64,000 bases of DNA from Azolla caroliniana (Eukaryota > Plantae > Polypodiophyta). The stretch's first letter is position 1. Each line of letters begins with the position of its first letter. Of the stretch, positions 1-32,600 are shown piece by piece. A model generated the notes under the pieces. It saw only the letters and a list, made by a program, of their open reading frames with translations, had not been told where the DNA came from and did no database searches. A program made the position numbers and the translations under genes. The DNA lies in the NCBI GenBank assembly GCA_043228905.1, contig JBHGNT010000022.1, positions 7,812,001 through 7,876,000 on the forward strand, given 5' to 3'.

Positions 1-3000
1 AGTACCCAAAGAGCAGCCATTGAAAGGGGAGGCTAAGTTAATTAGGCCTCAATTAGTTTCAGTCAAAGTATTTCACATAGCATTCATAGCTTCTGCAACT
101 CAATCATGTATTTCGTTTAATTGGTTTTAAATTATGTTTTCACTAGCCATGAACATGAAAGTTAATATGAAAGTGCAGCCCAAGGATATGAGTAGCTATG
201 GTAGGCAAGAATACACACAGAAAAATGTATCTACAAACATCTATTCTTTTGAAAATGTTGTAGTCTTCTCTTTTCAATATTCTCTTTTTAGTTCTAGTCT
301 TAGTATGAATTTAAGTTCTAGTCTTGCTTAGTTTATTAGTAATTGAGTACCCAAAGAGCAGCCATTGAAAGGGGAGGCTAATTTAATTAGGCCTCAATTA
401 GTTTCAGTCAAAGTATTTCACATAGCATTCATAGCTTCTGCAACTCAATCATGTATTTCGTTTAATTGGTTTTAAATTATGTTTTCACTAGCCATGAACA
501 TGAAAGTTAATATGAAAGTGCAGCCCAAGGATATGAGTAGCTATGGTAGGCAAGAATACACACAGAAAAATGTATCTACAAACATCTATTCTTTTGAAAA
601 TGTTGTAGTCTTCTCTTTTCAATATTCTCTTTTCAGTTCTAGTCTTAGTATGAATGTAAGTTCTAGTCTTGGTTAGTTTATTAGTAATTGAGTACCCAAA
701 GAGCAGCCATTAAAAGCGGAGGCTAATTCAATTAAGCTTCAATTAGTTTCAGTTAGAGTATTTCACATGGCATTAATAGTTTGTGCAGCTCAATCATGTA
801 TTTCGCTAAATTGGTTTTAAATTATGTTTTTCACTTGCCATGAACATGAAGGTTAATATGAAAGTGCAGCCCAAGGATATGAGTAGTTATCGTAGGACCG
901 AATACACACAGAAAAATGTATCTACAAACATCTATTCTTTTGAAAATGTTGTCGTCTTCTCTTTTCAATATTCTCTTTTCAGTTCTAGTCTGAGTATGAA
1001 TTTAAATTCTAGTCTTGGTTGGTTTATTAGTAATTGAGTACCCAAAGAACAGCCATTGAAAGGGGAAGCTAATTCAGTTAAGCTTCAATTAGTTTCAGTT
1101 AGAGTATTTCACATGGCATTAATATTTTGTGCAGCTCAATCATGTATTTCGCTAAATTGGTTTTAAATTATGTTTTTCACTTGCCATGAACATGAAGGTT
1201 AATATGAAAGTGCAACCCAAGGATATGAGTAGCTATGGTAGGCGAGAATACACACAGAAAAATGTATCTACAAACATCTATTCTTTTGAAAATGTTGTCG
1301 TCTTCTCTTTTCAATATTCTCTTTTCAGTTCTAGTCTTAGTATGAGTTTTACTTCTAGTCTTGGTTAGTTTATTAGTAATTGAGTACCCAAAGAGAAGCC
1401 ATTAAAAGGGGAGGCTAATTCAATTAAGCTTCAATTAGTTTTAGTTAGAGTATTTTAAATGGCATTCATAGCTTGTGGAGCTCAATCATGTATTTCGTTT
1501 AATTGGTTTTAAATTATGTTTTCACTAGCCATGAACATTCAGGTTAATATGAAAGTGCACCCCAAGGATATGATTAGCTATGGTAGGCAAGAATACTCAC
1601 AGAAAAATGTATCTAGCAACATCTATTCTTTTGAAAATGTTGTAGTCTTCTCTTTTCAATATTCTCTTTTTAGTTCTAGTCTTAGTATGAATTTAAGTTC
1701 TAGTCTTGCTTAGTTTATTAGTAATTGAGTACCCAAAGAGCAGCCATTGAAAGGGGAGGCTAAGTTAATTAGGCCTCAATTAGTTTCAGTCAAAGTATTT
1801 CACATAGCATTCATAGCTTCTGCAACTCAATCATGTATTTCGTTTAATTGGTTTTAAATTATGTTTTCACTAGCCATGAACATGAAAGTTAATATGAAAG
1901 TGCAGCCCAAGGATATGAGTAGCTATGGTAGGCAAGAATACACACAGAAAAATGTATCTACAAACATCTATTCTTTTGAAAATGTTGTAGTCTTCTCTTT
2001 TCAATATTCTCTTTTTAGTTCTAGTCTTAGTATGAATTTAAGTTCTAGTCTTGCTTAGTTTATTAGTAATTGAGTACCCAAAGAGCAGCCATTGAAAGGG
2101 GAGGCTAATTTAATTAGGCCTCAATTAGTTTCAGTCAAAGTATTTCACATAGCATTCATAGCTTCTGCAACTCAATCATGTATTTCGTTTAATTGGTTTT
2201 AAATTATGTTTTCACTAGCCATGAACATGAAAGTTAATATGAAAGTGCAGCCCAAGGATATGAGTAGCTATGGTAGGCAAGAATACACACAGAAAAATGT
2301 ATCTACAAACATCTATTCTTTTGAAAATGTTGTAGTCTTCTCTTTTCAATATTCTCTTTTCAGTTCTAGTCTTAGTATGAATGTAAGTTCTAGTCTTGGT
2401 TAGTTTATTAGTAATTGAGTACCCAAAGAGCAGCCATTAAAAGCGGAGGCTAATTCAATTAAGCTTCAATTAGTTTCAGTTAGAGTATTTCACATGGCAT
2501 TAATAGTTTGTGCAGCTCAATCATGTATTTCGCTAAATTGGTTTTAAATTATGTTTTTCACTTGCCATGAACATGAAGGTTAATATGAAAGTGCAGCCCA
2601 AGGATATGAGTAGTTATCGTAGGACCGAATACACACAGAAAAATGTATCTACAAACATCTATTCTTTTGAAAATGTTGTCGTCTTCTCTTTTCAATATTC
2701 TCTTTTCAGTTCTAGTCTGAGTATGAATTTAAATTCTAGTCTTGGTTGGTTTATTAGTAATTGAGTACCCAAAGAACAGCCATTGAAAGGGGAAGCTAAT
2801 TCAGTTAAGCTTCAATTAGTTTCAGTTAGAGTATTTCACATGGCATTAATATTTTGTGCAGCTCAATCATGTATTTCGCTAAATTGGTTTTAAATTATGT
2901 TTTTCACTTGCCATGAACATGAAGGTTAATATGAAAGTGCAACCCAAGGATATGAGTAGCTATGGTAGGCGAGAATACACACAGAAAAATGTATCTACAA

Positions 3001-5782
3001 ACATCTATTCTTTTGAAAATGTTGTCGTCTTCTCTTTTCAATATTCTCTTTTCAGTTCTAGTCTTAGTATGAGTTTTACTTCTAGTCTTGGTTAGTTTAT
3101 TAGTAATTGAGTACCCAAAGAGAAGCCATTAAAAGGGGAGGCTAATTCAATTAAGCTTCAATTAGTTTTAGTTAGAGTATTTTAAATGGCATTCATAGCT
3201 TGTGGAGCTCAATCATGTATTTCGTTTAATTGGTTTTAAATTATGTTTTCACTAGCCATGAACATTCAGGTTAATATGAAAGTGCACCCCAAGGATATGA
3301 TTAGCTATGGTAGGCAAGAATACTCACAGAAAAATGTATCTAGCAACATCTATTCTTTTGAAAATGTTGTAGTCTTCTCTTTTCAATATTCTCTTTTTAG
3401 TTCTAGTCTTAGTATGAATTTAAGTTCTAGTCTTGCTTAGTTTATTAGTAATTGAGTACCCAAAGAGCAGCCATTGAAAGGGGAGGCTAAGTTAATTAGG
3501 CCTCAATTAGTTTCAGTCAAAGTATTTCACATAGCATTCATAGCTTCTGCAACTCAATCATGTATTTCGTTTAATTGGTTTTAAATTATGTTTTCACTAG
3601 CCATGAACATGAAAGTTAATATGAAAGTGCAGCCCAAGGATATGAGTAGCTATGGTAGGCAAGAATACACACAGAAAAATGTATCTACAAACATCTATTC
3701 TTTTGAAAATGTTGTAGTCTTCTCTTTTCAATATTCTCTTTTTAGTTCTAGTCTTAGTATGAATTTAAGTTCTAGTCTTGCTTAGTTTATTAGTAATTGA
3801 GTACCCAAAGAGCAGCCATTGAAAGGGGAGGCTAATTTAATTAGGCCTCAATTAGTTTCAGTCAAAGTATTTCACATAGCATTCATAGCTTCTGCAACTC
3901 AATCATGTATTTCGTTTAATTGGTTTTAAATTATGTTTTCACTAGCCATGAACATGAAAGTTAATATGAAAGTGCAGCCCAAGGATATGAGTAGCTATGG
4001 TAGGCAAGAATACACACAGAAAAATGTATCTACAAACATCTATTCTTTTGAAAATGTTGTAGTCTTCTCTTTTCAATATTCTCTTTTCAGTTCTAGTCTT
4101 AGTATGAATGTAAGTTCTAGTCTTGGTTAGTTTATTAGTAATTCAGTACCCAAAGAGCAGCCATTGAAAGCGGAGGCTAATTCAATTAAGCTTCAATTAG
4201 TTTCAGTTAGAGTATTTCACATGGCATTAATAGTTTGTGCAGCTCAATCATGTATTTCGCTAAATTGGTTTTAAATTATGTTTTTCACTTGCCATGAACA
4301 TGAAGGTTAATATGAAAGTGCAGCCCAAGGATATGAGTAGCTATGGTAGGACAGAATACACACAGAAAAATGTATCTACAAACATCTATTCTTTTGAAAA
4401 TGTTGTCGTCTTCTCTTTTCAATATTCTCGTTTCAGTTCTAGTCTTATTATGAATTTAAGTTCTAGTCTTGGTTAGTTTATTAGTAATTGAGTACCCAGA
4501 GAGCAGCCATTGAAAGGGGAGGCTAATTTAATTAAGCTTCAATTAGTTTCAGTCAGAGTATTTGACATAGCATTAATAGCTTCTGCAGCTCAATCATATA
4601 TTTCGTTTAATTGGTTTTAAATTATGGTTTCACTAGCCATGAACATGAAGGTTAATATGAAAGTGCAGCCCAAGGATATGAGTAGCTATGGTAGGCAAAA
4701 TACACACAGAAAAATGTATCTACAAATATCTATTCTATTGAAAATGTTGTAGTCTTCTCTTTTCAATTTTCTCTTTTCAGTTCTAGTCTTAGTATGAATT
4801 TAAGTTCTAGTCTTGGTTAGTTTATTAGTAATTGAGTACCCAAAGAGCAGCCATTGAAAGGGAAGGCTAATTCAATTAAGCTTCAATTAGTTTCTGTTAG
4901 AGTATTTAACATGCCATTCATAGCTTGTGCAGCTCAATCATGAATTTCGCTAAATTGGTTTTAAATTATGTTTTTCACTTGCCATGAACATGTAGGTTAA
5001 TATGAAAGTGCAACCCAAGGATATGAGTAGCTATGGTAGGCGAGAATACACACAGAAAAATGTATCTACAAACATCTATTCTTTTGAAAATGTTGTAGTC
5101 TTCTCTTTTCAATATTCTCTTTTCAGTTCTAGTCTTAGTATGAATGTAAGTTCTAGTCTTGGTTAGTTTATTAGTAATTGAGTACCCAAAGAGCAGCCAT
5201 GGAAAGGGGAGGTTAATTCAGTTAAGCTTCAATTAGTTTCAGTTAGAGTATTTCACATGGCATTCATAGCTTGTGCAGCCCAATCATGTATTTCGCTAAA
5301 TTGGTTTTAAATTATGTTTTCCACTTGCCATGAACATGAAGGTTAATATGAAAGTGCAGCCCAAGGATATGAGTAGCTATGGTAGGCAAGAATACACAGA
5401 GAAAAATGTATCTACAAATATTTATTCTTTTCAAAATGTTGTAGTCTTCTCTTTTCAATATTGTTTTTTCAGTTCTAGTCTTAGTATGAATTTAAGTTCT
5501 AGTCTTGGTTAGTTTATTAGTAATTGAGTACCCAAAGAGCAGCCATTGGAAGGGGAGGGTAATTCAATTAAGCTTCAATTAGTTTCAGTTAGAGTATTTC
5601 ACATGGCATTCATAGCTTGTGCATCTCAATCATGTATTTCGTTTAATTGGTTTTAAATTATGTTTTCACCAGCCATGAACATGAAGGTTAATATGAAAGT
5701 GGAGCCCAAGGATATGAGTAGCTATGGTAGGCAAGAATACACATAGGAAAATGTATCTACAAACATCTATTCTTTTGAAAAT
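1..5782. repeat. 345/346-bp satellite array (~16.7 monomers, runs off the left edge) with a 5-monomer 1727-bp higher-order repeat
   Basis: Monomer start AGTACCCAAAGAGCAGCCATT recurs at 1, 346, 691, 1037, 1383, 1728 etc. Identical ORF-track variants recur at +1727 (134/1861/3588; 479/2206/3933; 840/2567; 1186/2913; 1516/3243). Confidence 0.98.
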
Positions 5783-5895: not shown

Positions 5896-8641
5896 ATGCC
5901 CGCTATTAAGAACAAATATTGGGATATCTATTGTTTCAATGTCACAAGAAGTTAGAGAGGAAATAGAAGTTGTAATTGTAAATTTTGCAACAAACATATG
6001 GACGGGTCAGCAACACGAATGATTGCTCATTTAATCGGAAAACCTAGCCATGGAGTAACGAAATGTATCAATGTTCCCAAGGAATTCTTGATTGACCTCA
6101 CATCTTTATATGGTAATTGTGGAACTCAAACAATTGGTGGAGAAGAAGATATAGTTGCCTGAACAAGGTATTGACAAGAGCCTACATTAGGTGTCATCAT
6201 TAATAATGGCCAAATAATTGTAAATGATTTATCTTGAAATGTTTTCTCTTTTAGGTGTTTCTACCTCAAGCTCATGTACCTTTGTTGGGGAAAGTGAAAG
6301 CATGTCATGTATGGGTGGTGGTAGTCACCAACCATATTCACCAGCAATGATAACGAAACAACAATCATTGCGTAAAGGACATGTGTTACAAATGCAAAGG
6401 AAACAACATGCAAATGTTACGAACGTGAGATGTATCATTGAAGCAAATTTGTCATTTAATCTACTAAAGAAACCATGTTGGCGGAACATGTTAGAAGCTT
6501 TCTCTACAATTGGAGAGAAACATAGTGGAGTCACATATAATTACATGAGGACGAAAGGCTTGAAAAATGAGGTTATATCCTTGCAAGGAAAGTTAGAAAG
6601 GGTAAGAGGATTATGGCCCAAGTATGGTTGTTCTATACTAACAGATGGATGGGTTGATGTTTCTCATAGGCAACTTGTAAATGTCCTCGTATCATCTTGG
6701 TATGGGACAATGTTCCTCAAGTCCATTGATTGCAGCCATGCTAATACAACACCAATAGCTAATAGCTCTTGGTTAGCTGAAAGAATTTCAGAGGCAATTA
6801 GAGAGGTTGGTAAGGAAAATGTGGTCCAAGTCATTTCAGACAATGCATCTAGTTGTGTCTGCATGGGGTCTTTGCTAGAATCAGAGTTCCCTAATATTGT
6901 TTGGACTCCATGTGCAACACATTCTTTGGATCTGCTTTTGGAGGACATTGGTCAGTTGCCTTGGATGAAAAGTATTATGATGGAAGCAAATACTATTGTA
7001 TGTTTTTTTTGCAAGAAGAGGAATGCTAGGAAATTTTTTTCGGCTCACAGTAACCTCGCCATCTTGAGACCTTCCAAGACAAGGTTTGGTGTGATGTATC
7101 TTGTCGTACAACGTTTGCTCAAAGTTTGGCATCCTCTTGAGCAAATAGTGGTGAGTGACATGTGGAGGTCTTGGTTAGATTGCAATAAGCCAGATGCAAT
7201 GAATGTAAAGAACTACATCCTTGGTCCTACTACTGAGTCCTCGTTTCAAGTTGTTTTGACCCTAATGGCACCATTGTATAGTGTTTTACGACTTACTGAT
7301 AGGGAGGGATCCACTATTGGATTGTTATATGAGTTTATGCGAAGAAGCAAAGATATTTTAGCAAAAGGAGTGGAAGAAAACATCCCCCACAAATCCAAGT
7401 AAGTTTCATATTTATTTTAATTTGTTATGGTTTCCTAAAATTAAACCTTCAATTGTTTGTTCATGTTTTAAGATTGATTCATTTGTAAAACCCTTTTAGG
7501 TATGAGGATGTTTTGAAGTTATTTGCTATACGATGGAAATGGTTCAAGAGGCCAATCCACCTTGTAGCTCATTTGTTACATCCGATATGGAGAGAGGAGG
7601 CTACATTTATTAACCCTGAGTTAATGGATGCATGGATGAGTTATGTGGAAAAATTGTACTCGACACTTGAATGTGATATCTTATTTCGTGAATTGCATGA
7701 ATATCGGAATGGTACAGGGACATTTAGTTATGCATTAGCACGTGAGGAGAGATCTATGATGACGCCAGTCACTTGGTGGGAAAATTTTGGTGGAAGAACT
7801 CCAAAGCTCCAAGCATTAGTTGTTCGCATATTATCCCAAGTGTCAAGTGTTGAAAAAATGATCAATTTTATAGTTAAGTTCTGAAATAGTTCACTTTTGT
7901 GTACTACATTTTATTTCATATTTTACTTTTTATTAGGATTGCTCTTCTGGGGCAGCGGAAAGGAATTGGAATGCACATGCTCTCGCACATACAAAAAATA
8001 GAAACAGACTAAAGGTAGCACAACTTGAACAATTGGTATATGTGCGAGAGAACTTACGACTAGTTCGCAAGTTTGAGACTGTGAATGCATCTCCAATGCA
8101 GGTATTGTTTTATTCATTCTTTTTATAATTTATATTCCTCAATATTCTTAAGTACTAATAATTAGTTTCTGCCATCGACACACTAGTTTGTGATACTTAG
8201 AAGTTAAAGCTTTTATAAACTTGTTTGCAGGTGAATCCAAATGAGATAGATGTCTCTAAGACTCCTGATATTCCATCTATTAGCCATGAAAATGATATGG
8301 ATAGAGAATTCTATGAAACTTATTTTCAAGAAACAATGAGCTTGAGAAGAAGGACAAGGAGCATGACAACATCACATATGACAACATCAAGCGATGGAGT
8401 CCCTACTAATCGAATACGAAGGCAAAGGCCAAGAAGAGATGATGAGCGGTCTTCTTATAATAGGAGAATAACACGATCAAGTACATTTGCTTCTTTACCA
8501 CTAGAAGATCAAGATAATGTCAATGCAATAGAAGAAGCAGTTCATACTAATTATGATGATCTTATGGACGAAGAACAAGTGTTGATGTCATCAACTAACA
8601 CAAAATCTGATGATGAAGATGGTGATGAGGACCAGATCTGA
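5896..8641 (+). mobile_element. hAT-superfamily transposase gene (BED finger + DUF659-type core + hATC dimerisation domain), 5 exons; exon 1 disrupted
   Basis: ATG 5896; BED-like W..CKFC..H..C with an in-frame TAG and a frameshift. GT-AG introns ~6168-6254, 7399-7499, 7840-7936, 8102-8230 join the ORFs in frame. Motifs ILTDGW, VISDNA, CATH, WWENFG and (after splicing) SQDCSSGAAERNW. Confidence 0.9.
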
Positions 8642-8879
8642 AGACAAATACTTCTAATTTCTATACGTTATTATTAAGCTCAATAACCTTATGTTACTTG
8701 TCTTTGATCTAAGCTCCATTTTGATACATTGGACATAGTTAGAGTTGTATCAATATCGTATTTTATTAAAGTAAAATTTTCATCATGTGGTTCTTTTTTA
8801 CCTTCATTTACTTTCATGGACCTTGCAATATTTGATGTTATGTCTTGTTAAGGTTTTTGCTCTAAATTTTCTTGTTAGA

Positions 8880-9150
8880 ATGCATTCTATTTCTTTGACC
8901 AAATGCAATGTGAGGGTATCTCAATGAATGGAATCACATTGGTGGGTCTATTGAAAGCTTGTTCCAATGTAGGATCTCTAGCCAAGTGTAAAGAAATTCA
9001 TGTCGAGGTTGCAAAGAAAGGGTTAGAAATAGAAGCTCTTGTGGTGCATTAAATGAAGCACAAGAAATGTTTGAGAGAAATTTGGTTCGAGATATAGTTT
9101 CATGGAGATCACTCATGGCGGGAATCGGGATATGCTGAACATGGACATAA
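8880..9150 (+). pseudogene. PLS-class PPR pseudogene fragment, 5' part (interrupted by the element at 9151)
   Basis: Hand translation gives FFDQMQCEGIS..ITLVGLLKACSNVGSL..KEIHVEVAKKGLE and EAQEMFE..RDIVSWRSLMAG..YAEHGH, typical PPR L/S/P motifs, with frameshifts. Confidence 0.8.
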
Positions 9151-10439
9151 TGTCATGATATGGCAAGACACGAACCCATGACCTTATGGTATATGGGTCG
9201 AGCTCTTAACCATCACACCATCTATTGTAATTCATAGGATATTATTTTCATTTATGTTTTACTATAAGAAAGTAATGTATATTCCAAATTTCTCTGGAAC
9301 ATTCTAGAAGTTTCAGGATTACTCCTGACAACACTATAAAAGAAGGCACTAGGCGTTATGTTGAACCAAATTGGTTCAACGCCAGTCTTAAGCCTCTCAG
9401 TCGCTTGTACTTATCTTTTCACATAAAATATTAGCTGTTGTCATCATCTTTCTCTCTCTCATCCTCGCTATCTCTCTCCTCTTCTCACTTCCTCTCTCGG
9501 GAATCTTACGCAATCCCGTCCTCTTAGTACTAATAGTACTTCTCTTCTTAGTACTAATTCCATCTCTGCTTTAGTGCTATTCCTGACATGGCAAGACTCG
9601 AACCCATGACCTTATGGTATATGGGTCGAGCTCTTAACCATCACACCATCTATTGTAATTCATAGGTTTTTTTTTATTTTTTATGTTTTATTATAAGAAA
9701 GTAATGTATATTCCAGATTTCTCTGAAACATTCTAGAAGTTTCAGGATTACTCCTGACAACACTATAAAAGAAGGCACTAGGTGTTATGTTGAACCAAAT
9801 TGGTTCAACGCCAATCTTAAGCCTCTCAGCCGCTTGTACTTATCTTTTCACATAATATATTTAGCTATTGTCATCGTCTTTCTCTCTCTCATCCTCGCTA
9901 TCTCTCTTTCTCTCTCGGGAATCTTACGCAGTCCCGTCCTCTTAGTACTAATAGTACTTCTCTTCTTAGTACTAATTCCATCTCTGCTTTAGTGCTATTC
10001 CTGACATGGCAAGACTCGAACCCATGACCTTATGGTATATGGGTCAAGCTCTTAACCATCACACCATCTATTGTAATTCATAAGATATTTTTTTTTTTAT
10101 GTTTTATTATAAGAAAGTAATGTATATTCCAGATTTCTCTGGAACATTCTAGAAGTTTCAGGATTACTCTTGACAACACTATAAAAGAAGGCACTAGGTG
10201 TTATGTTGAACCAAATTGGTTCAACGCCAGTCTTAAGCCTCTCAGCCGCTTGTAGTTATCTTTTCACATAATATATTAGCTATTGTCATCATCTTTCTCT
10301 CTCTCATCCTCGCTATCTCTCTCTCTCTCCTCTTCTCACTTCCTCTCTCGGGAATCTTACGCAGTCCCGTCCTCTTAGTACTAATAGTACTTCTCTTCTT
10401 AGTACTAATTCAATCTCTGCTTTAGTACTATTCCTGACA
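9151..10439 (+). repeat. Three head-to-tail LTR copies (9151-9588, 9589-10006, 10007-10439)
   Basis: Each unit ends TATTCCTGACA and contains TATAAAAG and the GTTGAACCAAATTGGTTCAAC palindrome. Confidence 0.95.
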
Positions 10440-10453
10440 GTTTGAACCAATTT
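10440..10453 (+). promoter_or_regulatory. Primer-binding site complementary to the LTR's own predicted +1 region (self-priming type)
   Basis: TTGAACCAATTT (10442-10453) follows the LTR end after GT and is the reverse complement of AAATTGGTTCAA in each LTR (e.g. 9368-9379). There is no TGG tRNA-type PBS. Confidence 0.8.
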
Positions 10454-10483
10454 TTCCTTTCCTCCTACCCTTTTCCCTATACT

Positions 10484-11552
10484 ATGGCTACTGTTAGCGC
10501 CCAAGAATATGAATCCGTTTTCTCCGAGTTACAATGCCTAAAAGAAAAGTTTGTTGCTCTGGAACAAGAAAACCAACGGTTGATAGGGGATCTGCAACAA
10601 ATCGCTCTCGAAAAACAACAAACGCAACAACAACATGGGGAGTTAGCATTACGGGTACAACAACTCGAAGCAACGTTGCAACTACAAGGATGAAGTCCCC
10701 AAGGATTTCATTTAAGAGCCCAATATTGGACTTCCTGTGAAATTTGATGGAACGCGATCGCAATTCTGGGGATTCCTTAATCAGGTACGCTTAGTCATCC
10801 AGATGCATCCTTCCCGATATCCCACTGATGCGTCTCGAGTCGGCCTAATAGGCACGTTACTTAGCGGCTCTGCCTTGGCATGGTTCGCTCAGCTTCTAGA
10901 AAAACAATCACCCTTGCTTAATAACTTTGAATATTTTATTGGTGAGTTTAAATCCTGCTTTGGAGATACTGACAGCATCAGGACGACGATGAAGAAGATC
11001 CGAAGATTGCGTCAAGGCGATCGTCCAGCCTCTGCCTACGCGGCGGATTTCCATCTACTCGCCTCAGATATTCCCTGGGATGATCAGGCCCTCATGAAGC
11101 AGTTTGGCTACGGCTTGCGCAATGATGTCAAAGATCTGCTTTTAACCTTCCCCGAAGAACCAAAGTCGCTTACGGAGGCAATCAGTCGAGCGGTCTGATG
11201 TGACAACCGCCTTTTCAAACGGCGTTCGGAGCGTCAGTTACAAATACCACGCTCTTGGCCGGAACCCACATACGCCTCAGTAACGGCTAAACCGTTTGCA
11301 CGCGATGTACCTCAAGCCAATATTCCGACACCGATGGAGATCGACACCATGCGTCAACACGGCCCGTTATCGGAAGAAGAAAAGCAACGACGACGTGCCA
11401 ATCGATTATCTCTTTATTGCGGTGGACCAAGGCATATCGCCATCAATTGTCCCCATAGGCCAAGAAGACAGGTAAATCAAATCATCGCTTGTACTAAAAC
11501 CGAGTCTATTCTTCCCTTCGGAGTGTCTGATAGTATTAATAGTACTAATAGA
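10484..11552 (+). pseudogene. gag: Degenerate Ty3/Gypsy gag (capsid + CCHC knuckle relic)
   Basis: KFDGTRSQFWGFLNQVRL..SRVGLIGTLLSGSALAWF..LRQGDRPASAYAADF; PMEID; RLSLYCGGPRHIAINCP; several stops. Confidence 0.9.
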
Positions 11553-11553
11553 C

Positions 11554-11997
11554 TGTCAGGAATAGTACTAAAGCAGAGATGGAATTAGTACTAAGAAGAG
11601 AAGTACTATTAGTACTAAGAGGACGGGATTGCGTAAGATTCCCGAGAGAGGAATTGAGAAGAGGAGAGAGAGAGAGATAGCGAGGATGAGAGAGAGAAAG
11701 ATGATGACAACAGCTAATATATTATTTGAAAAGATAAGTACAAGCGGCTGAGAGGCTTAAGACTGGCGTTGAACCAATTTGGTTCAACATAACGCCTAGT
11801 GCCTTCTTTTATAGTGTTGTCAGGAGTAATCCTGAAACTTCTAGAATGTTCCAGAGAAATCTGGAATATACATTACTTTCTTATAATAAAACATAAATGA
11901 AAATAATATCCTATGAATTACAATAGATGGTGTGATGGTTAAGAGCTCGACCCATATACCATAAGGTCATGGGTTCGAGTCTTGCCATATCATGACA
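11554..11997 (-). repeat. Inverted copy of the 9151 LTR
   Basis: TGTCAGGAATAGTACT...CATATCATGACA is the full-length reverse complement of the LTR. Confidence 0.95.
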
Positions 11998-12355
11998 CAT
12001 AATAAGGACTCAAGAGGCATTGGATTGCTTTGAAAAGATGAGGAAACATTGTTGCCTCTTGCCACATGCATTTTCATTGTCTTGTGGGTTGAAAGCTTGT
12101 GGAAGCTTGAGAGATAGACAAAAAGACCGAGAAATACATGCCGACATCGTCAAAATAGGTTTTGAAAAAGATGTCCTTGTTGATAACACAATAGTCAACA
12201 TGTATGTGAATGGTGGGTTATTGTCGATTGCGCACTACTTGTTTAACACTCTAGTGGTGTGAGATGTGGTTTCACTAAACTCATTGATGGTAAGAAATGC
12301 CAAACAAGGGCATAACAAGGAGCCTATTTTTTGTTTTGAGGAGATGGTTTCAAAA
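11998..12355 (+). pseudogene. PLS-class PPR pseudogene fragment, 3' part
   Basis: EALDCFEKM..FSLSCGLKACGSL..REIHADIVKIGFEKDVLVDNTIVNMY..A.YLFN..DVVSLNSLM (ORF 12020..12262). Confidence 0.85.
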
Positions 12356-12646
12356 CGGGGGTTTACATATCCAGCGACTACAGATAGTGTGTGCTTTTTA
12401 CAATATTACAAATATTTTCTTGAAATGTAAATAATTTTCAAATTCTAGAAGTATTTTACGTACTATACGTAAAATACGTATTTTATGTATTTTATAAGTA
12501 TTTAAAATATTACAAAACGTATTTAACGTATTTTTAAATTGGGAGGTATTATACGCGTATTAATACGTTATATATGTATGGTATCCGTACCGTACCTAAC
12601 AACCATGCGAGTGATAATGAATTATCGCATTGCCAATTGATGGCAT

Positions 12647-17994: not shown

Positions 17995-20900
17995 TGTTGT
18001 AATAAACTAATTAGTGTAGAATAAATAAATAGGAAACTAAATAATAAAAACGTAACCTTATGATATGAAAAGGTGCACCCCAAAAATAGGGTGCACCTAT
18101 AACCACCACATTTTCTCTCTGTGTTGTCGGTTGGTTGTAAGAGAGTGACAGAAACTATCATTCAATTAAGTTTTCTTCTTCTCTTTCTCTCTCTTTCTCT
18201 CTCCCTCTCTTTCCATTCCATATTCCCTTATTTTCCACGTGGTATCAGAGTAGTGAAGGAGTCCAACCCCACCAAGAATTGTGTCGCGGTGTTAATAACG
18301 AACGTGTGAATTAAAGAAATGTTTTTCGACCATGTCAAACAGTGGAGTGATAGCAAATGTGGCGGCAAATGCTGCCCAGGTATCGTCTCACACTTATCAC
18401 ATTGAAAAACTAAATGATAAAAACTATCAACCATGGCGTATGACCATGGAAATTATATTAGAACAACATGACTTGTTAAATATCGTCGATGGAACCGACG
18501 TGTGCCCTAACATTAATGTCCCCACAAATGCACTTGACGTTCAAACATGGAAGCGGCGTGATTTAAACACTCGCTTAGAACTTCTCCTTCATATGGAGGA
18601 CACACTTAAGCAAAGTGTGAGAACCTTGACTACCTCCAAACATATATGGGATAGATTAGAGGCTGATTACCTCCATATGGATATTACGTCCCAAGTTGCA
18701 AATTTAAAAATTTAATAAATATGAATATGAATGAAAATGATGATGTTGATACATTTGTTAAAAATTGGAGACTTCGACTTGATGATGTGATCCTTTCAGG
18801 ACTTAGTTTGCCAAGTTCTGTTCAATCTGCCCTCTTGTTAGCCGCCCTACCCCCATCATGGCAACCATTTATAAGTACAAAATCCACATCAGCCAACATT
18901 AGTGTCCCAACATTAGTGGCATCAATCTCACAAGAAAACATACATCGTAGGGCAATAAATCAACCATCCTCATCTCACACCGCACTTTATATCAAACATC
19001 CAAATTACAATAAAAAAACCTTACAATAAACCTAGATCAACATACCAACCTAATAACTCCAAATTTTATTCACGGACTTCTAAATTTAATGATTCAAGGA
19101 ATCATAAAAAATCTAGGTTCCTTAGATCCTTTTGTACAAATTGTCAAAGGAGTGGACATGAAACAAAAGATTGTTATAGGAATCCTAACAATGGGAAAAG
19201 AACATATAAAGAAGACCAATCTTACAATGCATCACGTGATGACTACGATCAAAATAATGACATATGTCATGGTGACCAAAATTCCGATGAGGATAATGAA
19301 GACTCTTTCATTGCCTTCATGGCCCTCACTTCATTTAACAACTCTCCCACTTCAACGTGGATTCTTGATACAGGTGCCACATGTCACCTCACCTCAAGAG
19401 TTGAATGGCTCAAAGACTATAAGGTCTTAGAGCATCCTTTCCCGGTTAGATTTGGGAACAATGGGGTTGAATATGCCCTTGGACATGGGACTGCCCATCT
19501 TGAACTTTTTTATGGGAACTTCATTGAAATCAATGAAGTTTACTATATACCTAACATAGCAAAAAACGTGATATCTGTCAATAAATTCACAAATGATAAT
19601 ACATCCGTCTAGTTTTATCACAAATATTGTATCATTCGTCATAAGACACCCTCTGGACAAGGCTATGTCGTTAACTGTCCCAGACAAGGATGTCTTTACC
19701 TCTTAGGTCGCTCTGTGGTACTTGCCGAAGAAGCTACCACATGGATGATTCAAACACATCCAACTATATGACCTTATTATGGCACTATCGATTAGGCCAC
19801 TTAAACCATCAAACAATGGTTCACATGGCCCGACAACATATAGCAGTTGGTTTTACTCTTCCTAGTAAATCGAAACTATCCCTTTGCGAAGGGTGTATAT
19901 TTGGAAAACTCTCTAACTCGCCATTTCCATCCCATCCTACAACGGCCACTAAACCCCTCCAACTAGTGCACATAGATATATGTGGTCCTTTGTCTACCCC
20001 ATCCCTATCTGGAAATGTATATTTCCTAACATTTATCGATGACTTTACTCGTTTCACGATGGTCACATTTCTCAAGACAAAATGTAGTGATCAAGTCCTT
20101 GAGAAATTCAAAGCCTATCATAAACTTGCAACAAATCAACAAGAATTACCCCTTAAAGTACTCCAATCAAATAATGATGGAGAATTCAAGTCCCAAAACT
20201 TCCAAACGTATTGGCAAAATCATGGGATTCAACAACGATTTACCATTCCATATACACCCCAACACAATTCAAGGGCCGAACGACGAAACCGGTTGTATAT
20301 GGATGCCACTCGTTGCATGCTCGTCGTTGTAAACCTTCCCCGAACATATTGGGAAGAGGTTGTTTTGACCGCTTGTTATATATTCAATAGAACATATAGT
20401 CAATCAATTAGCACAACTCCATTTTCCTTGTGGTTTGGAAAAAATCCAAATTATAAACATCTAAGAATCTTTGGATGTCCATCATATGCACTCGTACCGC
20501 TAGAAACTCGATCAAAATTAGATAATCACGCAGTTTGCACAATATTTGTTGTGTATGGCGAACCTCATGGCTATAAGGGTTATCGTTTATACGACCCAAA
20601 ATACAAAAGATTTATATTTAGCCGACGAGTGATATTTGATGAAGACAGATTGATATCTAATCCTCATTCACATCATGGCTATGAAAAGATACAAGACGCG
20701 ACTACCATGTCTAACACTAAATCCAATAACGAAGTAATATCATCACCTACTAATTCTTGGCGGGCTCCACAAATGTCCTCGGAAATTCAACAAGTCACAA
20801 TTAACTCTCCTCCATTAATGCCCTCATCTCTAGAGGTCCTCCCACAAGTCTCAGGTTCAACCAATGACTCCAACTTATTGCCTTTAATAACCAAACAATC

Positions 20901-22991
20901 CCAACAAATTGATGTACATACTCCAATTTTAAACAGTAACCCCAACCAAAGTAAAAAGAGCCTTAATAATCACCATAGCATTCATAAGGAAAAACTTTTA
21001 GATGGAACACAACTGACTCATATTGATTATTCATGCTCCCATCCTATCAAAAATCTCCTTATTCCACTACGACGATCCTCACATCTTAATGGCAAGTTGA
21101 AAACCATTGGTCACAATGATGCAAAAGTAATTAAAATAGGATGTAGAAATACTTCATATTCCACTAATAATCAACATGTAGAACATACAAATAGTTCTGA
21201 CATTGCGTAATCAACTAGTTCACTTAGCTCTACATCTACTCCAAAGAAAGTTCGTACTATTCAAGATCTTTATGATCAAACAAAAAAAATAGACGCTCTT
21301 GTTGCGGACCATCAATTTGAACCTGAGTTTGCATTTTCGGCTCTTGGTTCCCCCTCAACCACATCAGACATTTCTGATGATCCCTTAACTATCAATGAGG
21401 CATTGCAAAGCCCAGATCATAATGAATGGCAAGCTGCCATGGCAAAAGAACTTGAATCTCTTGAGGCCAACAAAACATGGACCCTAGTACCACTCCCAAT
21501 GGGATGCTCACCTATTTCATGCAAATGGGTGTTGAAGAAAAAACTAAACCCTGATGGTAGTGTTGCACGTTACAAAGCTCGACTTGTCACGCGTGGTTTT
21601 TCTCAAGTTGAAGGACTTCACTATTCTGAGACATTCTCACCCGTTCTTCGCATGGCATCTTTTCGGTGCCTAATGGCTCTGGCCACCATTCTTGACCTCG
21701 AGGTACATCATTTGGATGTATAAACGGCATTTCTACATGGTGATTTACCCGAAGAAATCTACATGTCACAACCTCCTGGGTTTGAGTCACACTCTCAACC
21801 AAACTATGTGCGTCGGTTACATCGGTCGCTTTATGGACTCAAACAATCTCCTAGGTTATGGTTTCAAAATTTTAACAATTTTATGCTCTCACATGGCTAT
21901 TCTAGATTGTTATCAAAACCAAATATATACATTTGACATAATCATACATCTAATCGGTTGTTAGTGGTAGCACTATATGTGGATGACATTCCTATAGTTG
22001 GAACACCATCTGAAATTACTCAAGCAAAGCTAGAACTTTCCAAAGCATTTTCAATAACAGATTTAGGTCCCCTATCTTATTTTCTAGGCATGCAATTTAT
22101 GCGTAATCGTAGTATGGGCACCTTGATCATTCATCAAAATAAATTCATTAATGAAATTTTGAAATCCTTCGGAATGTTAAACATTAAACCTTGCCCTACT
22201 CCCTTATCACTAACATGTAACTTAAGCATATCCGATGGTCCAACCACAAAAAGAGATATTAATTTTATGCAACAATTTCCCTTTAAACAATTCGTTGATT
22301 CTCGAAGATCTACTACTGGTTTTTCTTTTATAATGCCAGGAGCAGCAGTGATGTGACAATCGAAAAAACAAGAATCTGTGACACTCTCATCTGCTGAAGC
22401 TGAATTTGTAGCAGTGGCATTGGCTGCTAAAGAAGGATTATGGTTGCAAACAGTGTTATAAGAACTCCAACTATGTGAACCACTCCAATTGAAAATCTTC
22501 TGCGACAATATATCATGTATCTACTTAACGAAGAATCCAAAGCACTCGGAGAAAACAAAACATGTGGATTTAAAATATCACTTTATACGAGAGTTGGCCG
22601 AAGAAAACAAGCTTACCTTAGAGTTTACATCGACAAATCATATGTGGGCTGATTTTCTAACAAAGGCTCTACCTCCGGACAAATTTGAAGCTTGTTGTGA
22701 AATTTTAGGATTACAACGATTCACAACTAATTAGTTTATGGGGGGTTGTTGTAATAAACTAATTAGCGTAGAATAAATAAATAGGTAACTAAATAATAAA
22801 AACGTAACCTTATGATATGAAAAGGTGCACCCCAAAAATAGGGTGCACCTATAACCACCACATTTGCTCTCTGTGTGGTCGGTTGGTTGTAAGAGAGAGA
22901 CAGAAACTATCATTCAATTAAGTTTTCTTCTTCTCTTTCTCTCTCTTTCTCTCTCCCTCCCTTTCCATTCCATATTCCCTTATTTTCCACA
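17995..22991 (+). mobile_element. Ty1/Copia 'B' with both 245-bp LTRs (17995-18239, 22747-22991), TSD GGCAA; gag-PR-INT-RT-RH decayed
   Basis: PBS TGGTATCAGAG (tRNA-Met) at 18240; G-rich PPT before 22747; motifs IEKLNDKNYQPWR, WILDTGATCH, LWHYRLGH..CEGC, LYVDD, KHVDLKYHFIRE; ~7 LTR mismatches. Confidence 0.96.
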
Positions 22992-27340: not shown

Positions 27341-28333
27341 ATTCATACGTCTGGTTCTCATGCAGGGAATCCATCTCGTCCTGCATGGCATTCAACCACG
27401 TGCGGCTGTGGGTGTCCTCCTTTGCTTCTTCGAAGCTTTCCAGCTCCCCCTCATCGGTCAGCAACACGCGCTCTGCATCCGGAAATCTCTGGGGGGGCCT
27501 TCTCTCTCAAAGAGAATATCTGTGTCTTTGTTTCCGACAACCGGCTCCTCAGTTTGTTCTTCATCCGAATCCAATTCGGGATCTTGGCCGGTTACGATTC
27601 CTGCTTCCTCTTCTTCTTCTATTGGTTCGGTGTCCTCTCCGTAACCGGTTGGTTCTTCGAGTTTCAACCGACTCTTAGCCGGGTAGGTCCGTATTTCATC
27701 GAATCGGTCCTTTTCGGTCGACTCGGAGTTCATTATCTTCTTCTCCGACTCCCAATCGTCAAGAGTCTTGTCCTCCATGAAGATAATATCTCGACTCCGG
27801 AAAACCTTCTTGTCGACCGGATCCCGCACTCAGTAGCCGAACTCATCATCGTCGTATCCGAGGAATATGTTGTCAAGACTGAGAGAGAGAAAGAGAGAGA
27901 AAAAGAGATCGAGAGATAATTGAAAGAGAATTATTATATTGAAGTGTAAAATGGATTACAAAGAGTAGGCTACAAAATGGCGTTGAACCAATTTAGGTTT
28001 AGGATGGGTGGTAGATCCCTATTAATAAGTAATAGAGAACACTCTAGAATATTCTAGGTTATCCTAGAATATAGAGTAATCTAGAAGATCTCTATAGTAT
28101 TCTAGAAGGTTCTTGTGGTATAGAACACTCTAGAATATTCTAGGTTATTCTAGAATGTAGAGTAATATAGAATATTCCTATGATATTAGATTTCATATTC
28201 TAGGGACTATACATATAAGAATATTAATACAATGGTTAAGGATTTGACATGTGTACAACAAGGTTGTGGGTTTAAATCCTTTCGAGTCATAATGTGAGTG
28301 TCATGATCCTTTCGATGCATGATGTGAGTCTTA

Positions 28334-28579
28334 TCATGACACTATCCCCCTTCTTTGACGACACGTTTCACGGGTTGTAGGGTTTGTATTCGGACCTGGT
28401 TTACAAGGATATTGGCGATGAAATGCATTGACGAGTTCTGCAACATTGGAAAGATTTGCAGCAAGTTCCCAAGTTCGATCATTGGGGGTATAGCCTAGCC
28501 AATCGACTAGGTAATACAACTTTTTGTGCACGATTTTAGAATCGAGAACGGCAGCAACTTCAAATTCAGGCCCGTCCAA
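28334..28579 (-). pseudogene. Integrase C-terminal chromodomain
   Basis: EFEVAAVLDSKIVHKKLYYLVDWLGYTPNDRTWE..NL, with aromatic-cage positions F, W, Y present. Confidence 0.9.
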
Positions 28580-28978
28580 GAACTCGACAGGTGGTGGGGG
28601 TGTCGTATGACGGCTCGAATTGAACTTGTAGTATAAGGTTCCAAAAGGGATACATGAAACACCGGATGAAGATGCATGTGCGGAGGGAGGTCAAGACGAA
28701 ATGCAACATCACTTATCTTACCAGTGATCATGTAAGGGCCAAAACGTTGGTAATCCAATTTACTGCAAGGTCGAGAGGTCTTGATGTTGTGTTGGAGAAG
28801 CCATACATGATCCCCAATGCGGAACTTTTTTGAGGAGTCTAGACAATGATGATCGGCAAGCCTCTTGTCTATAAATTGAGCATCGTGCAAATTGTGGATA
28901 ATGTTAGCTTGAATTTCTTGGAGGCGGCTAAGAAGATCCTCGGCAGCAGGGTTGGTAGGAACTTCTGGATGTGCATTC

Positions 28979-29689
28979 TGACAGGAACAACACGCTTCGA
29001 TGAACACCGCTCGGCCACAACCAAGCTTAGAATCAAACACAGAAAACAGGGAATGAAAAACACGACACAAAGGAGAGAAGAGTACACATGATGTTTAACG
29101 TGGAAAACCATGAGAGGGAAAAACCATGGGAGTCCATAGACTCCAAACTATCACTATATCACAATGATTAAAATAGTGAGCTCACGGAGGCAACGACCTC
29201 TTCCTCTCTCTCTCTCTCTCTCTGTACACTGTTACGCGCTCTCTAGTCTTGCGCCAACAAGAATGACAATAACACTTTACTAAGTTTGCCCTAAGTCATA
29301 TTTATACTAATATGACTTTTTGGCTATTTACAAATATAGCTCCGATGGACTCTTAGAAAACATATTTACGAATATGTCCCTTCATCCAGTGAGCACTTCT
29401 CACCGGGCCTTCACCATCCGGCTGTTGCCGGGTACTCCTCATCCGGTTCTCACCGGGCCTTCACCATTCGGCTCTTGCCGGGGACTCCTCATCCGGTTCT
29501 CACCGGGCCTTCACCATCCGGCTCTTGCCAGGGACTCCTCATCTGGTTCTCACCGGGCTTTCACCATCCGGCTCTTGCCGGGTACTCCTCATCCGGTTCT
29601 CACCTGGCCTTCACCATCCGGCTCTTGCTGAGTTTGCTCATCAATACTGTTCTTCTCACTTCCCATCCGGAGGGACCTTTTTCCTAACA
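28979..29689 (-). mobile_element. Solo LTR (Copia C-related family), TSD CATTC, inside the chromovirus integrase
   Basis: TG..CA ends; CATTC at 28974-28978 and 29690-29694; shares TGGAAAAC..GGAAAAACCA and CCCATCCG..GGGACC..TCCTAACA with 33325-33899. Confidence 0.92.
29396..29628. repeat. 50-bp tandem repeat (~4.7 copies) in the solo-LTR U3
   Basis: CACCGGGCCTTCACCATCCGG (with variants) at 29401, 29451, 29501, 29551, 29601. Confidence 0.92.
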
Positions 29690-32600
29690 CATTCATCGTC
29701 CACCAAGGATGACAGCCCGTATTTGCGAAAAATGGGGAATATACTGTAGAAGAATGGGCTGAGTTGTTGTAAGAGAATTCCGCCAAGTGCAAAAAATCAA
29801 CCCAATCATCTTCTTGATAGTTGATGAAACAACGAAGATATTGTTCCAATGTCTGGTTGGTACGCTCTGTTTGGCCATTTGTTTCAGGATGATAGCCCGA
29901 AGAAAGCTTAACTGAAATGTGGAGAAGTTTGAACAGGTGCTTCCAAAACTTTGAGATGAACTGTGGACCATGATCACTAATAATATCATCAGGCATACCA
30001 TGATGCTTAAATACCTCCCGCATAACGAGATCAACCACCTCTTGACTAGTAATCGACTTTGTACATGGCAAGAAATGTCCATAGCGTGTGCGGAAAGCTG
30101 TGTTCCATTCATCCCCCGGGCGAATCCGAACTAGATTATATGCTCTACGAAGGTCCAACTTCGTGAAATATTTTGCACCATTGAGACGTTCCAAAAGATT
30201 CGGGATTAATGGTAGAGCATATTTATTCCGGATAGTCACTTTGTTTAGCCCTCGATAATCCACGACCAACCGAAGAGTCCCATTCTTCTTCTTAACGAAG
30301 AAGATAGGTGCACCAGCAGGGGATCTAGAATGCTGAATGAATCCATTTACCAAATTCTCATCAATATATTCCCGCAAAGTCTATAGCTCTACAGGGGAGA
30401 GATTATAAATTGGGCCACATGGAGGTTCTTTCCTTGGTTGTAAGTCAATAGGGCAGTCGTATGGCCGATGCTCCAGCAATGTATTGGCCTTCACCTTATC
30501 AAAGACATCTGAAAACTCCTTCTATTTCTCTGGTAGTTTAATGTCCGCTTCACATGAAGTAGATGATGGAGTTGCAATTATTGTGAAGACGAACATGGCC
30601 TCGTTCCCCCCTTCCTCCCGCAACTGTCGTAAAGAGATGCGCGATAACTCTGGGGGATCTATTATCACATGTAGGAGAGAGGGATGCGGGGTTTGTGCTT
30701 TTTTCCCGGGTCTCCTCAATTGTTCTTTTCATCCAATCAAGTGAGTCGAGTTTTTTCAGCACAAGTCGAGCTTTGTAGCCTACTCTTTGTAATCCATTTT
30801 ACGCTTCAATATAATAATTCTCTTTCAATTATCTCTCTATCTCTTTTTCTCTCTCTTTCTCTCTCTCAGTCTTGACAGTTTGAACCAATTTAGGTTTGGG
30901 ATGGGTGGTAGATCCCTATTTATAAGTAATAGAGAACACTCTAGAATATTCTAGGTTATCCTAGAATGTAGAGTAATCTAGAAGATCTCTAGAGTATTCT
31001 AGAAGGTTCTAGTGGTATAGAACACTCTAGAATATTCTAGGTCATTCTAGAATGTAGAGTAATATAGAATATTCCTATGATATTAGATTTCATATTCTAG
31101 AGACTATACATATAAGAATATTAATACAATGGTTAAGGATTTGACATGTGTACAACAAGGTCGTGGGTTCAAATCCTTTCGAGTCATAATGTGAGTGTCA
31201 TGATCCTTTCGATGCATGATGTGAGTGATATCATGACATATGCAAGGCTGGGACTTTGGGTCCAACTTTGCTCTCCGGTCCTTTGCCACATGCACGTAAG
31301 TGAGACACCCGAAAACCTTCAGATGCCGGTAAGACACTTCATTACCGGTCCACACTCTCTACGGCGTGTCTCTGTCCAAGGGCACTGAGGGTGATCTGTG
31401 TATCACGTACGTCGCTGTCAGCAGTGCCTCAGCCCAAAACGTCTTGGGTAACTTTGCATGTGCTAGCATACTCCGGACCCTCTCCATTATGGTCTGGTTC
31501 ATCCTCTGGACCAGCCCATTTAGTTCCGGCGTCTTCGGCATGGTAAATTTGAGCCGGATGCCCTTCGAGCGGCAGTACTCCTGGAAATGCCCCCGCCCGA
31601 TATTCTCCTCCGTTATCTGCTCGAACCGCCTTCAGCTTCCAACCGGTTTTTCTTTCCACTCTCGCGTGGAGCTCCTTGAAAACAGATAACACCTGATCCT
31701 TCGTCTTCAGCAGTGTGGCCCACAGCTTCCAGTTGTGGTCATCTATGAACGTCACGAAGTACTCGATCCGGCATGTGACTTCATGTCCACTGGACACACA
31801 TCGGTATGCACCAACTCTAGTGGTACATTATGTCTCATTGGTGGCCTTGATTGGAAGGAGGTCTGGTTTTTCTCATCGGCCAGGCAGTCGGTGCACTTCT
31901 CAAGGTGCACGTCTTTCACCGGAATGAGGTTGTCATCAACAAGCCTCTTCATCCCCTTCTCATTCATGTGACACATTCTCTTGTGCCACAACTCACCCGC
32001 AATGTCGGATGCAACGTTCACTTCTTTTCAGGATAATCGGGCATTCATTAGGCACAGTGTGTTGACTTTCCGGGCCTGAGCCACTATTAGGCTCCCTTTT
32101 GCAGAACTTCATGACACTGTTCCAGATGCTACCTATGTAGCCTTGATCATCTAGTTGACCGGTTGATATCAGGTTCAGTCGAACCTCCGGAACATGTCGG
32201 ACATCCTTCAGCAGCAACTTGCATCCGGTTGATGTCGTCAACAACACATCTCCTATGCCGATAATTCGGCATGTCCCTTCATTCCTCATCCGGACACAGC
32301 CGTGCTCACCGGCTGTGTACGATGAGAAGCATTTCCGGTCCAGGGTCAGGTGGAACGACACTCCGGAATCGACAACCCACGTTGTCTCGTCGCCGGCAAT
32401 GTTCAACTCACTCTCCTCGGTGATGAGCATCAACTCTTCTTCACTTGCCGCGATTGTTGTCGTTCCCTTTCAGTCCGGTCCCCTCCGATCTTTACCGTTC
32501 CGGTCCGGTGACCGCTTCGAATTAGTACTGTCGGTTTCCTTGTCTTTTCGGAAGTGCCGACAGTTCCTCTAGAAGTGTCCTAGCTTGCCACAATAGAAGC

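What the first reader, a model, noticed from the sequence alone, without database searches (positions are those of the whole stretch)
9146..12002. LTR element with an inverted terminal LTR but an intact 5-bp TSD
Seen: both outer ends are U3 ends (TGTCATGA..TCATGACA) flanked by CATAA/CATAA. The inverted LTR joins the end of gag precisely at its TG (11554), and pol is absent. Established: normal integration uses one U3 and one U5 end of direct LTRs. Inference: either two cDNAs were co-integrated with swapped ends, or the 3' LTR flipped via its 7/8-bp terminal repeats, or this is a non-autonomous gag-only class with ~440-bp inverted termini. Read-through would form long dsRNA against the family.
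Basis: partly seen in the sequence, partly recalled or inferred. Interest (0 to 1): 0.75.

Follow-up and report, generated by a model that had tools for sequence, protein, structure and literature searches.

The report
Dead chromovirus copy with inverted LTR
This 2.85-kb insertion is a truncated copy of a plant retrotransposon that carries the element's left end at both termini; it is likely a dead one-off from a reverse-transcription error that the integrase would still have pasted in, not a new mobile family.

Summary
In detail: U3 ends face outward on both sides, inside a CATAA duplication. Contigs from 3 of 4 public runs show the empty site with one CATAA, so the block is a single insertion. 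The left end is three tandem LTRs. The primer site pairs with the element's own R start (Tf1-type self-priming). The inverted LTR joins gag 58 nt before its stop and 2 nt outside the TG, keeping the unprocessed U5 dinucleotide (CA-GT). The family's polypurine tract is absent, so a simple flip of the 3' LTR fails. Retained GT argues against an integrase-made joint. The junction was not bridged in 4 runs and had no match in metagenome contigs, so no mobile class is supported. Most likely a plus-strand strong-stop DNA mis-primed on gag, giving a cDNA with two U3 ends (50%). Host template-switch repair after insertion is the main rival (27%). A second self-priming relative in this window also has an inverted U5 that keeps GT. 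The scan noted two-U3-ended by-products before in other genomes (unchecked notes).

The parts
9146..9150 (.). Left copy of the 5-bp target-site duplication CATAA, in a decayed PPR-like sequence
   Evidence: empty site with one copy in 3 of 4 runs; weak PPR hit on the right flank only, below Pfam cut-off
9151..9588 (+). LTR copy A (full U3-R-U5); supplies the left outer U3 end
9589..10006 (+). LTR copy B, lacking U3 nt 1-10; body shares derived sites with C, last variable site shared with A, so likely made by unequal crossover between A and C
10007..10439 (+). LTR copy C, lacking U3 nt 1-10; functional 5'-LTR position; TATA at 10180, predicted R start and self-primer AAATTGGTTCAA at 10213-10224
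10440..10441 (+). GT dinucleotide between U5 and the primer site, the extension of the unprocessed cDNA end
   Evidence: also in L007, L028, L031; a perfect two-LTR junction CA-GT-AG-TG in run X4 (table 5c)
10442..10453 (+). Primer-binding site TTGAACCAATTT, exact complement of the R start (predicted self-priming)
   Evidence: 12 of 12 pairs, -13.4 kcal/mol, and part of the predicted fold of the leader
10484..11551 (+). Broken, 3'-truncated gag: stops at 10691-10693 and 11196-11198, a frameshift near 10710, cut 58 nt before the family stop
   Evidence: Pfam Retrotrans_gag, Ty3_capsid, DUF4939; 962 of 1067 nt identical to L007
11522..11551 (+). 30-nt low-complexity gag unit, tandemly repeated in part of the family; resembles the complement of the U5 end
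11552..11553 (-). Retained GT (AC on +) of the unprocessed U5 end at the inversion joint
   Evidence: family gag continues CC here in X1, X2, X10 and L007; U5-side contigs match through 11552 and go on into the primer site
11554..11997 (-). LTR copy D, complete and inverted; supplies the right outer U3 end
11998..12002 (.). Right copy of the target-site duplication CATAA

Best explanation
The element is a truncated copy of a high-copy chromodomain Ty3/gypsy family, with three tandem LTRs, a broken gag and an inverted LTR that keeps the unprocessed U5 dinucleotide; it likely arose once during reverse transcription and was likely integrated through two U3 ends. Inferred steps: (1) A plus-strand strong-stop DNA (U3-R-U5-GT) that lacked a copy of the primer site could not make the normal second strand transfer. 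(2) It paired loosely with the 30-nt repeat near the end of gag on a genomic RNA and primed minus-strand synthesis there, which skips pol and the polypurine tract. (3) This chimeric strand reached the primer site and paired with another, normal strong-stop DNA; extension of both gave a linear DNA with a U3 end at each side. (4) Integrase accepted it because U3 and U5 ends match at 7 of 8 bases, leaving the 5-bp duplication. (5) The A/C tandem formed at about the same time through the repeat between U3 nt 3-10 and the U5 end; copy B came later by unequal crossover. The copy cannot repeat the cycle, since it has no polypurine tract and no sense R at its 3' end.
For: Both ends of the inverted LTR coincide with the natural ends of a strong-stop DNA: the first base of U3 and U5 plus GT. 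GT is shown to be the family's cDNA extension by a perfect CA-GT-AG-TG two-LTR junction in 1 of 4 runs (X4, table 5c). The empty allele in 3 of 4 runs, with no intact element seen at the site, fits a single insertion. A, C and D radiate as a near-star against 5 outgroup LTRs, with D almost ancestral, so the rearrangements date to about the insertion. The joint lies next to the joint-best match to the U5 end in the 4841-nt interior of L007 (score 25.5, tied with one other site). It sits exactly one 30-nt unit downstream (6 of 8 bases identical at that offset), and a family variant with a second unit exists (P0004; X2 record 23, depth 1293). A second self-priming relative in the window has an inverted R-U5 that also keeps GT and is joined at the primer 12-mer. 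In Tf1 only about half of the cDNA keeps a full copy of the primer site (PMC11042837, passages).
Against: The homology at the joint is modest: 21 of 200 shuffles reach the same best score. With a 16-nt primer the top sites lie elsewhere. The best tract lies in the retained part of gag, so priming needs the two-unit variant in the parent, which cannot be shown. The terminal microhomology (TGACA) and the same repeat would serve host repair equally well. Integration through two U3 ends in vivo is assumed; no paper on it was found. The A/C junction ends at CA without GT, so it needs a different step. None of 45 family loci showed an inverted or tandem LTR like these, though most contigs end inside the LTR.
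Confidence: 0.5

Rival explanations
1. Host repair after a normal insertion. A break removed pol and the 3' LTR, and repair synthesis copied the 5' LTR in inverted orientation, switching templates at the TGACA shared by U3 and U5 ends and at the gag repeat. The duplication is then that of the original normal insertion.
For: 5-nt exact and 7-of-8 similarity of the two LTR ends; resemblance of the gag unit to the U5 end. Copy B shows that host recombination has acted at this locus. No unusual integrase substrate is needed.
Against: It needs three rearrangements within the time of at most two shared mutations. The inner end stops exactly at the cDNA end (GT), not inside U5 or the primer site. D carries the full U3 start, so it must predate the A/C tandem.
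Confidence: 0.27
2. Two separate cDNA pieces (an LTR-gag fragment and a free double-stranded LTR) were ligated end to end by host end-joining, or by integrase, and then integrated through the two free U3 ends.
For: A blunt unprocessed CA-GT end is what end-joining leaves, as in the two-LTR junction seen in X4. The A/C joint ends at CA, as an integrase attack would. Inversion circles from autointegration are known in plants (PMC7197481, passages).
Against: An integrase-made joint should end at CA and lose GT (established knowledge, recalled). Inversion circles have no free U3 ends. A random break would not be expected beside a top match to the U5 end.
Confidence: 0.12
3. A non-autonomous mobile class with about 440-bp inverted termini and gag only.
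For: Clean duplication and long inverted termini. One weak joint, 9825->11752 in 2 of 4 runs at likeness 88, hints at another fold-back LTR in the family.
Against: 0 matches of the 27-nt junction in metagenome contigs (the family copies there are about 86% identical, so the test is weak). None of 32 listed pieces bridges it in X1, X2, X4, X10, where family depth reaches about 1e4-1e5 (966 pieces not shown). No polypurine tract; gag has two stops and a frameshift.
Confidence: 0.04
4. The 3' LTR flipped in place through its 7/8-bp terminal repeats and pol was deleted separately.
For: The terminal repeats exist. Gag before the joint ends ATAG, as does the family tract.
Against: The tract is gone. 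The extra AC is neither gag nor the tract spacer (AG in 5 of 5 loci that show it); it matches the GT that follows only a 5' LTR or a free cDNA end.
Confidence: 0.03
5. Misassembly or a chimeric long read.
For: No read set of the same individual was available; none of the laid runs was shown to carry this insertion.
Against: All four LTR copies have private substitutions, so D is not a mirror of A, B or C. The two flanks are truly adjacent in the empty allele. The joint falls on a biochemically meaningful base.
Confidence: 0.04

Closest known systems
Tcn1-clade chromoviruses of mosses and lycophytes, e.g. SM-Tcn1 (PMC2864245, PMC6317226; passages read)
   Same: The parent family (L007) has 444-447-bp TG...CA LTRs, separate gag and pol frames, PR-RT-RH-IN-chromodomain order and a polypurine tract; the window's copy shows the 5-bp duplication. 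Self-priming is predicted, as reported for most Tcn1 elements.
   Different: This copy has lost pol and the tract, has three tandem LTRs and an inverted 3' LTR. Clade placement by tree was not done. For SM-Tcn1 itself no primer site was found in PMC2864245.
Tf1/Tj1 self-priming elements of fission yeasts (PMC4600332, PMC10085805, PMC11042837; passages read)
   Same: The primer site downstream of U5 is complementary to the predicted RNA 5' end. cDNA ends are heterogeneous in Tf1, with about half keeping the primer-site copy.
   Different: The Tf1 by-products described in those passages are tandem elements in direct orientation sharing one LTR, not inverted termini with a target duplication.
Autointegration inversion circles (SISYPHUS in Arabidopsis, PMC7197481 passages; Ty1 and retroviruses cited there)
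   Same: An LTR end joined in inverted orientation to an internal site of the element.
   Different: Those are extrachromosomal circles made by integrase, with both halves kept. This one is chromosomal, lacks the 3' half and keeps the unprocessed GT.
DIRS retrotransposons (PMC7192593, PMC3950715; search listing only)
   Same: Inverted long terminal repeats around gag-like sequence.
   Different: DIRS use a tyrosine recombinase and (recalled) make no target duplication. Here the parent is a DDE-integrase gypsy with direct LTRs, and the inversion is seen in this copy only.

Membership tests
Ty3/gypsy chromovirus (parent family) | Gag, then PR-RT-RH-IN with a C-terminal chromodomain | tested here: met
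   L007 Pol: Asp_protease_2 (below cut-off), RVT_1, RT_RNaseH, rve, Chromo in that order; window gag 90% identical to L007 gag
Tcn1 clade / Tf1-sushi group | Primer site complementary to the element's own RNA 5' end instead of a tRNA | tested here: met
   12 of 12 pairs with the R start 33 nt after the TATA; the start site is predicted, not mapped
Tcn1 clade / Tf1-sushi group | Chromodomain with aromatic cage | tested here: met
   Y, W and Y at the cage positions in the L007 translation, read by eye against the recalled HP1 pattern
Tcn1 clade / Tf1-sushi group | Placement in the Tcn1 branch on RT/RH/IN trees | not tested
   no reference set was fetched; a fungal gag at 58% identity (P0054) is only a hint
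Replication-competent or non-autonomous LTR retrotransposon (this copy) | Direct LTRs at both ends, giving a sense R at the RNA 3' end | tested here: not met
   right LTR inverted
Replication-competent or non-autonomous LTR retrotransposon (this copy) | Polypurine tract before the 3' LTR | tested here: not met
   no run of 5 G on either strand; family tract seen in 5 of 45 loci
Mobile inverted-terminus class (TIR-like or gag-only) | Several dispersed copies sharing the junction | tested here: inconclusive
   0 hits; 0 of 32 listed pieces bridge it; the window's own genome is not held
DIRS order | Tyrosine recombinase and no target duplication | tested here: not met
   5-bp duplication with empty allele; parent encodes an rve integrase
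Integrase autointegration product | Joint at the processed CA end | tested here: not met
   GT retained at 11552-11553; the A/B and B/C joints do end at CA

The most novel reading that the evidence does not exclude
Self-priming chromoviruses of non-seed plants routinely produce integrated cDNAs with inverted LTR parts. Their strong-stop DNAs mis-prime on their own RNA, and integrase accepts two U3 ends. Such insertions seed long-hairpin loci that silence the family and give raw material for elements with long inverted termini.
Probability: 0.25. Interest if true: 0.65.

Novelty: new variant of a known kind. Interest (0 to 1): 0.42.

Why it matters
As one dead copy it matters little for the host. 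As a fossil it keeps an unprocessed cDNA end inside a chromosome and suggests that an LTR integrase can use two U3 ends in vivo. Both relatives of this type recognised in 64 kb carry inverted LTR parts that keep GT. If a genome-wide count bears this out, these joints would map reverse-transcription intermediates of plant Tcn1-like elements, for which I found no biochemistry in the searches made. They would also point to an overlooked source of hairpin RNA. LTR finders that require direct repeats would miss them (inference).

Tried and rejected
Whole-genome census: no genome is held for this window. Relatives in viral contigs (13 pattern matches, none confirmed) and prokaryote genomes (108, none confirmed). 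Expression: no RNA holder listed, so nothing can be said on transcription or small RNAs. Tandem U5|U3-nt-11 junction in other loci: 0 of 45; not tested in the sequencing runs. L025 has two opposed LTRs, but with U3 ends facing inward across 414 bp of copia-like DNA and no shared duplication, so it is not a second case. Folding of the junction as single-stranded DNA (z -2.38, 4 of 200 shuffles as good) comes from AGTACT palindromes and was not used. The full PPR reading frame across the empty site was not rebuilt; the flanks were translated separately. Two papers that bear on strong-stop DNA and autointegration (PMC1170264, PMC1676259) are not held, so they were seen only as citations. No supplements were read. 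Sequence and neighbourhood look-ups in earlier notes gave nothing.

Full report
Observation. The window shows CATAA|TGTCATGA at 9146-9158 and TCATGACA|CATAA at 11990-12002. The right 444 bp are an inverted LTR. The left end is not one LTR but three in tandem: A 9151-9588, B 9589-10006 and C 10007-10439. In B and C the CA of the previous U5 is joined to U3 nt 11. After C come GT, a 12-nt site TTGAACCAATTT, and gag from 10484. Gag has stops at 10691 and 11196 and a frameshift near 10710. No pol match lies in the element.

Is it one insertion? Contigs of four public runs were laid on 8600-12600. Three of four (X1, X4, X6) join 9144 to 11997 directly, leaving one CATAA, and one X6 contig of 1161 nt covers both flanks. 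In X2 no joint was listed, but a contig starts at 11997 with 7 letters that do not fit the LTR. So the flanks are adjacent in other samples and the duplication is a true target duplication. None of these runs was shown to carry the insertion, so the assembly was not checked with its own reads. Against misassembly, each LTR copy has private substitutions (K2P A-D 0.018, C-D 0.028, A-C 0.039, B-C 0.030). With a recalled plant rate of 1.3e-8 per site per year this is about 0.7-1.5 million years; the host's rate is unknown.

Parent family. A 22-nt U3 pattern fetched 45 metagenome loci. L007 is a nearly complete relative with open gag and pol frames and the order PR-RT-RH-IN-chromodomain; its gag is 962 of 1067 nt identical to the window's. 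The primer site is the exact complement of AAATTGGTTCAA, 33 nt after the TATA. This is the self-priming layout of Tf1 and Tj1 (PMC4600332, PMC10085805, passages), predicted for most plant Tcn1 elements of mosses and club-mosses (PMC6317226, passages). SM-Tcn1 has 440-bp LTRs, separate gag and pol and a 5-bp duplication (PMC2864245, passages). I did not build a tree, so the clade is a likely assignment. The family is very abundant in the runs (summed depth mostly 1e4-1e5 in X1, X2 and X4, against about 1e2 on the flanks).

The inversion joint. L007 is identical to the window over the last 32 nt up to 11551 and then goes on CCCAAG, 58 nt before its stop. Loose ends at 11551 in X1, X2 and X10 agree. 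The window has AC there, then TGTCAGG. AC is the complement of the GT that follows U5 before the primer site in L007, L028 and L031. U5-side contigs match through 11552 and continue into the primer site. One contig in X4 holds a perfect two-LTR junction, CA-GT-AG-TG (table 5c, read by hand), which identifies GT and AG as the extensions of the unprocessed cDNA. So the joint keeps a whole cDNA end. Integrase removes that dinucleotide (recalled; also the start of the abstract of PMC8742673 in the listing), so it did not make this joint. A flipped 3' LTR would be preceded by the polypurine tract ending ATAG, seen in all 5 of 45 loci that show it. No such tract is in the element.

Why here? The last 30 nt of gag are the joint-best local match to the complement of the U5 end in the 4841-nt interior of L007 (25.5, tied), and second best by duplex energy for a 24-nt primer. 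However, 21 of 200 shuffles reach that score, and a 16-nt primer prefers other sites. The tract lies in the retained gag, so pairing would need a second unit downstream. The joint is exactly one unit on (6 of 8 identical). A two-unit variant is seen in P0004, in X2 record 23 at depth 1293 and in loose ends of X6 and X10. This is suggestive, not proof.

Order of events. Against five outgroup LTRs, D is nearly ancestral, A and C carry separate sets of changes, and at most two sites could group A, B and C against D. B shares four derived body sites with C and its last variable site with A, so B is best read as a later unequal crossover between A and C. The inversion and the A/C tandem date to about the insertion. 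U3 nt 3-10 resemble the last 8 nt of U5 (6 of 8 here; 8 of 45 loci carry a variant with an exact TGACA), which explains where the tandem joint lies but not who made it.

Mechanism. Best reading (inferred, 0.5): a plus-strand strong-stop DNA ending at GT, without a primer-site copy, primed on gag RNA; the product took a normal second transfer and so had two U3 ends, which match U5 at 7 of 8 bases and were integrated. In Tf1 only about half of the cDNA keeps the full primer-site copy (PMC11042837, passages). The normal transfers are as reviewed in PMC6894440 (passages). Main rival (0.27): template-switch repair of a normal insertion using the same microhomologies. End-joining of two cDNA pieces (0.12), a mobile class (0.04), misassembly (0.04) and a flip (0.03) follow.

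A second case in the window. At 27871-31238 (minus strand) a related element sits in a copia integrase with a 4-of-5 duplication. Its 3' LTR and tract are normal. Its 5' LTR reads U3, the same 12-mer, then AC and R-U5 inverted, then pol from the end of the protease; gag is gone. The inverted piece again keeps GT and is joined at the primer 12-mer. A fold-back of the minus strand onto its own 5' end would give this, and so would inversion between the 12-nt repeats plus a deletion. So 2 of 2 elements of this type recognised in 64 kb are rearranged this way, against 0 of 45 metagenome loci, most of which are too short to tell.

Mobility and RNA. The 27-nt junction had no match in metagenome contigs. 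None of 32 listed pieces from X1, X2, X4 and X10 bridges it (966 not shown). The copy lacks a tract and a sense 3' R, so the normal cycle cannot copy it. A transcript from C would pair 224 of 229 R-U5-GT bases with D in a predicted fold; no RNA data were available.

Literature. Ten searches were run. Judged from listings and the seven papers read in passages, none describes a chromosomal LTR element with two outer U3 ends and a target duplication. The nearest are inversion circles (PMC7197481, passages) and DIRS (listing only). The library lacks much older retrovirology, so this is weak evidence of novelty. Earlier notes of this scan describe two-U3-ended by-products in other genomes and a scrambled chromovirus in this one; they are unchecked and were seen after my reading was set.

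Verdict. Real and well defined, but most likely a dead one-off by-product of an ordinary retrotransposon: a new variant of a known kind, interest 0.42.

Noticed in passing
window 27871-31238 (-): Related self-priming chromovirus remnant in a copia integrase, duplication TATGT/TATGC. The 5' LTR has R-U5 inverted (30772-30877), keeping GT and joined at the primer 12-mer; gag is lost, RT is joined to integrase by a second deletion, and about 700 bp of other DNA lies inside.
   Followed up: partly
window 1-5782: 345-bp satellite, 16.7 copies, with a 5-unit (1727-bp) higher-order repeat whose copies are identical over the 300 nt compared; very recent duplication or assembly duplication.
   Followed up: partly
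window 9359-9379 and the same place in copies B-D: The U3/R border is a near-perfect palindrome (10-bp arms) that could hide the self-primer copy at the RNA 3' end; also seen in several family loci.
   Followed up: no
run X4, joint 11998->11752: A perfect two-LTR junction CA-GT-AG-TG of this family at depth 15, giving the unprocessed cDNA ends.
   Followed up: yes
joint 9825->11752 in X1 and X4: Weak hint of another fold-back LTR turning within R; letters between unknown, laid at likeness 88.
   Followed up: no
window 41064-45750: Gypsy-like element with 167-bp LTRs (98%), a probable 4-bp ATAT duplication and a TGG-type primer site.
   Followed up: no
window 17995-22990: Element with 244-bp LTRs (97.5%), GGCAA duplication and a tRNA-Met-like primer site (recalled motif), probably copia.
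   Followed up: no
window 6224-8641: Fragmented hAT transposase (DUF659; weak Dimer_Tnp_hAT hit below cut-off).
   Followed up: no
L031 (5474 nt) and L028: Polypurine tract, LTR, primer site and gag in one run: tandem elements sharing an LTR, or collapsed assembly.
   Followed up: no
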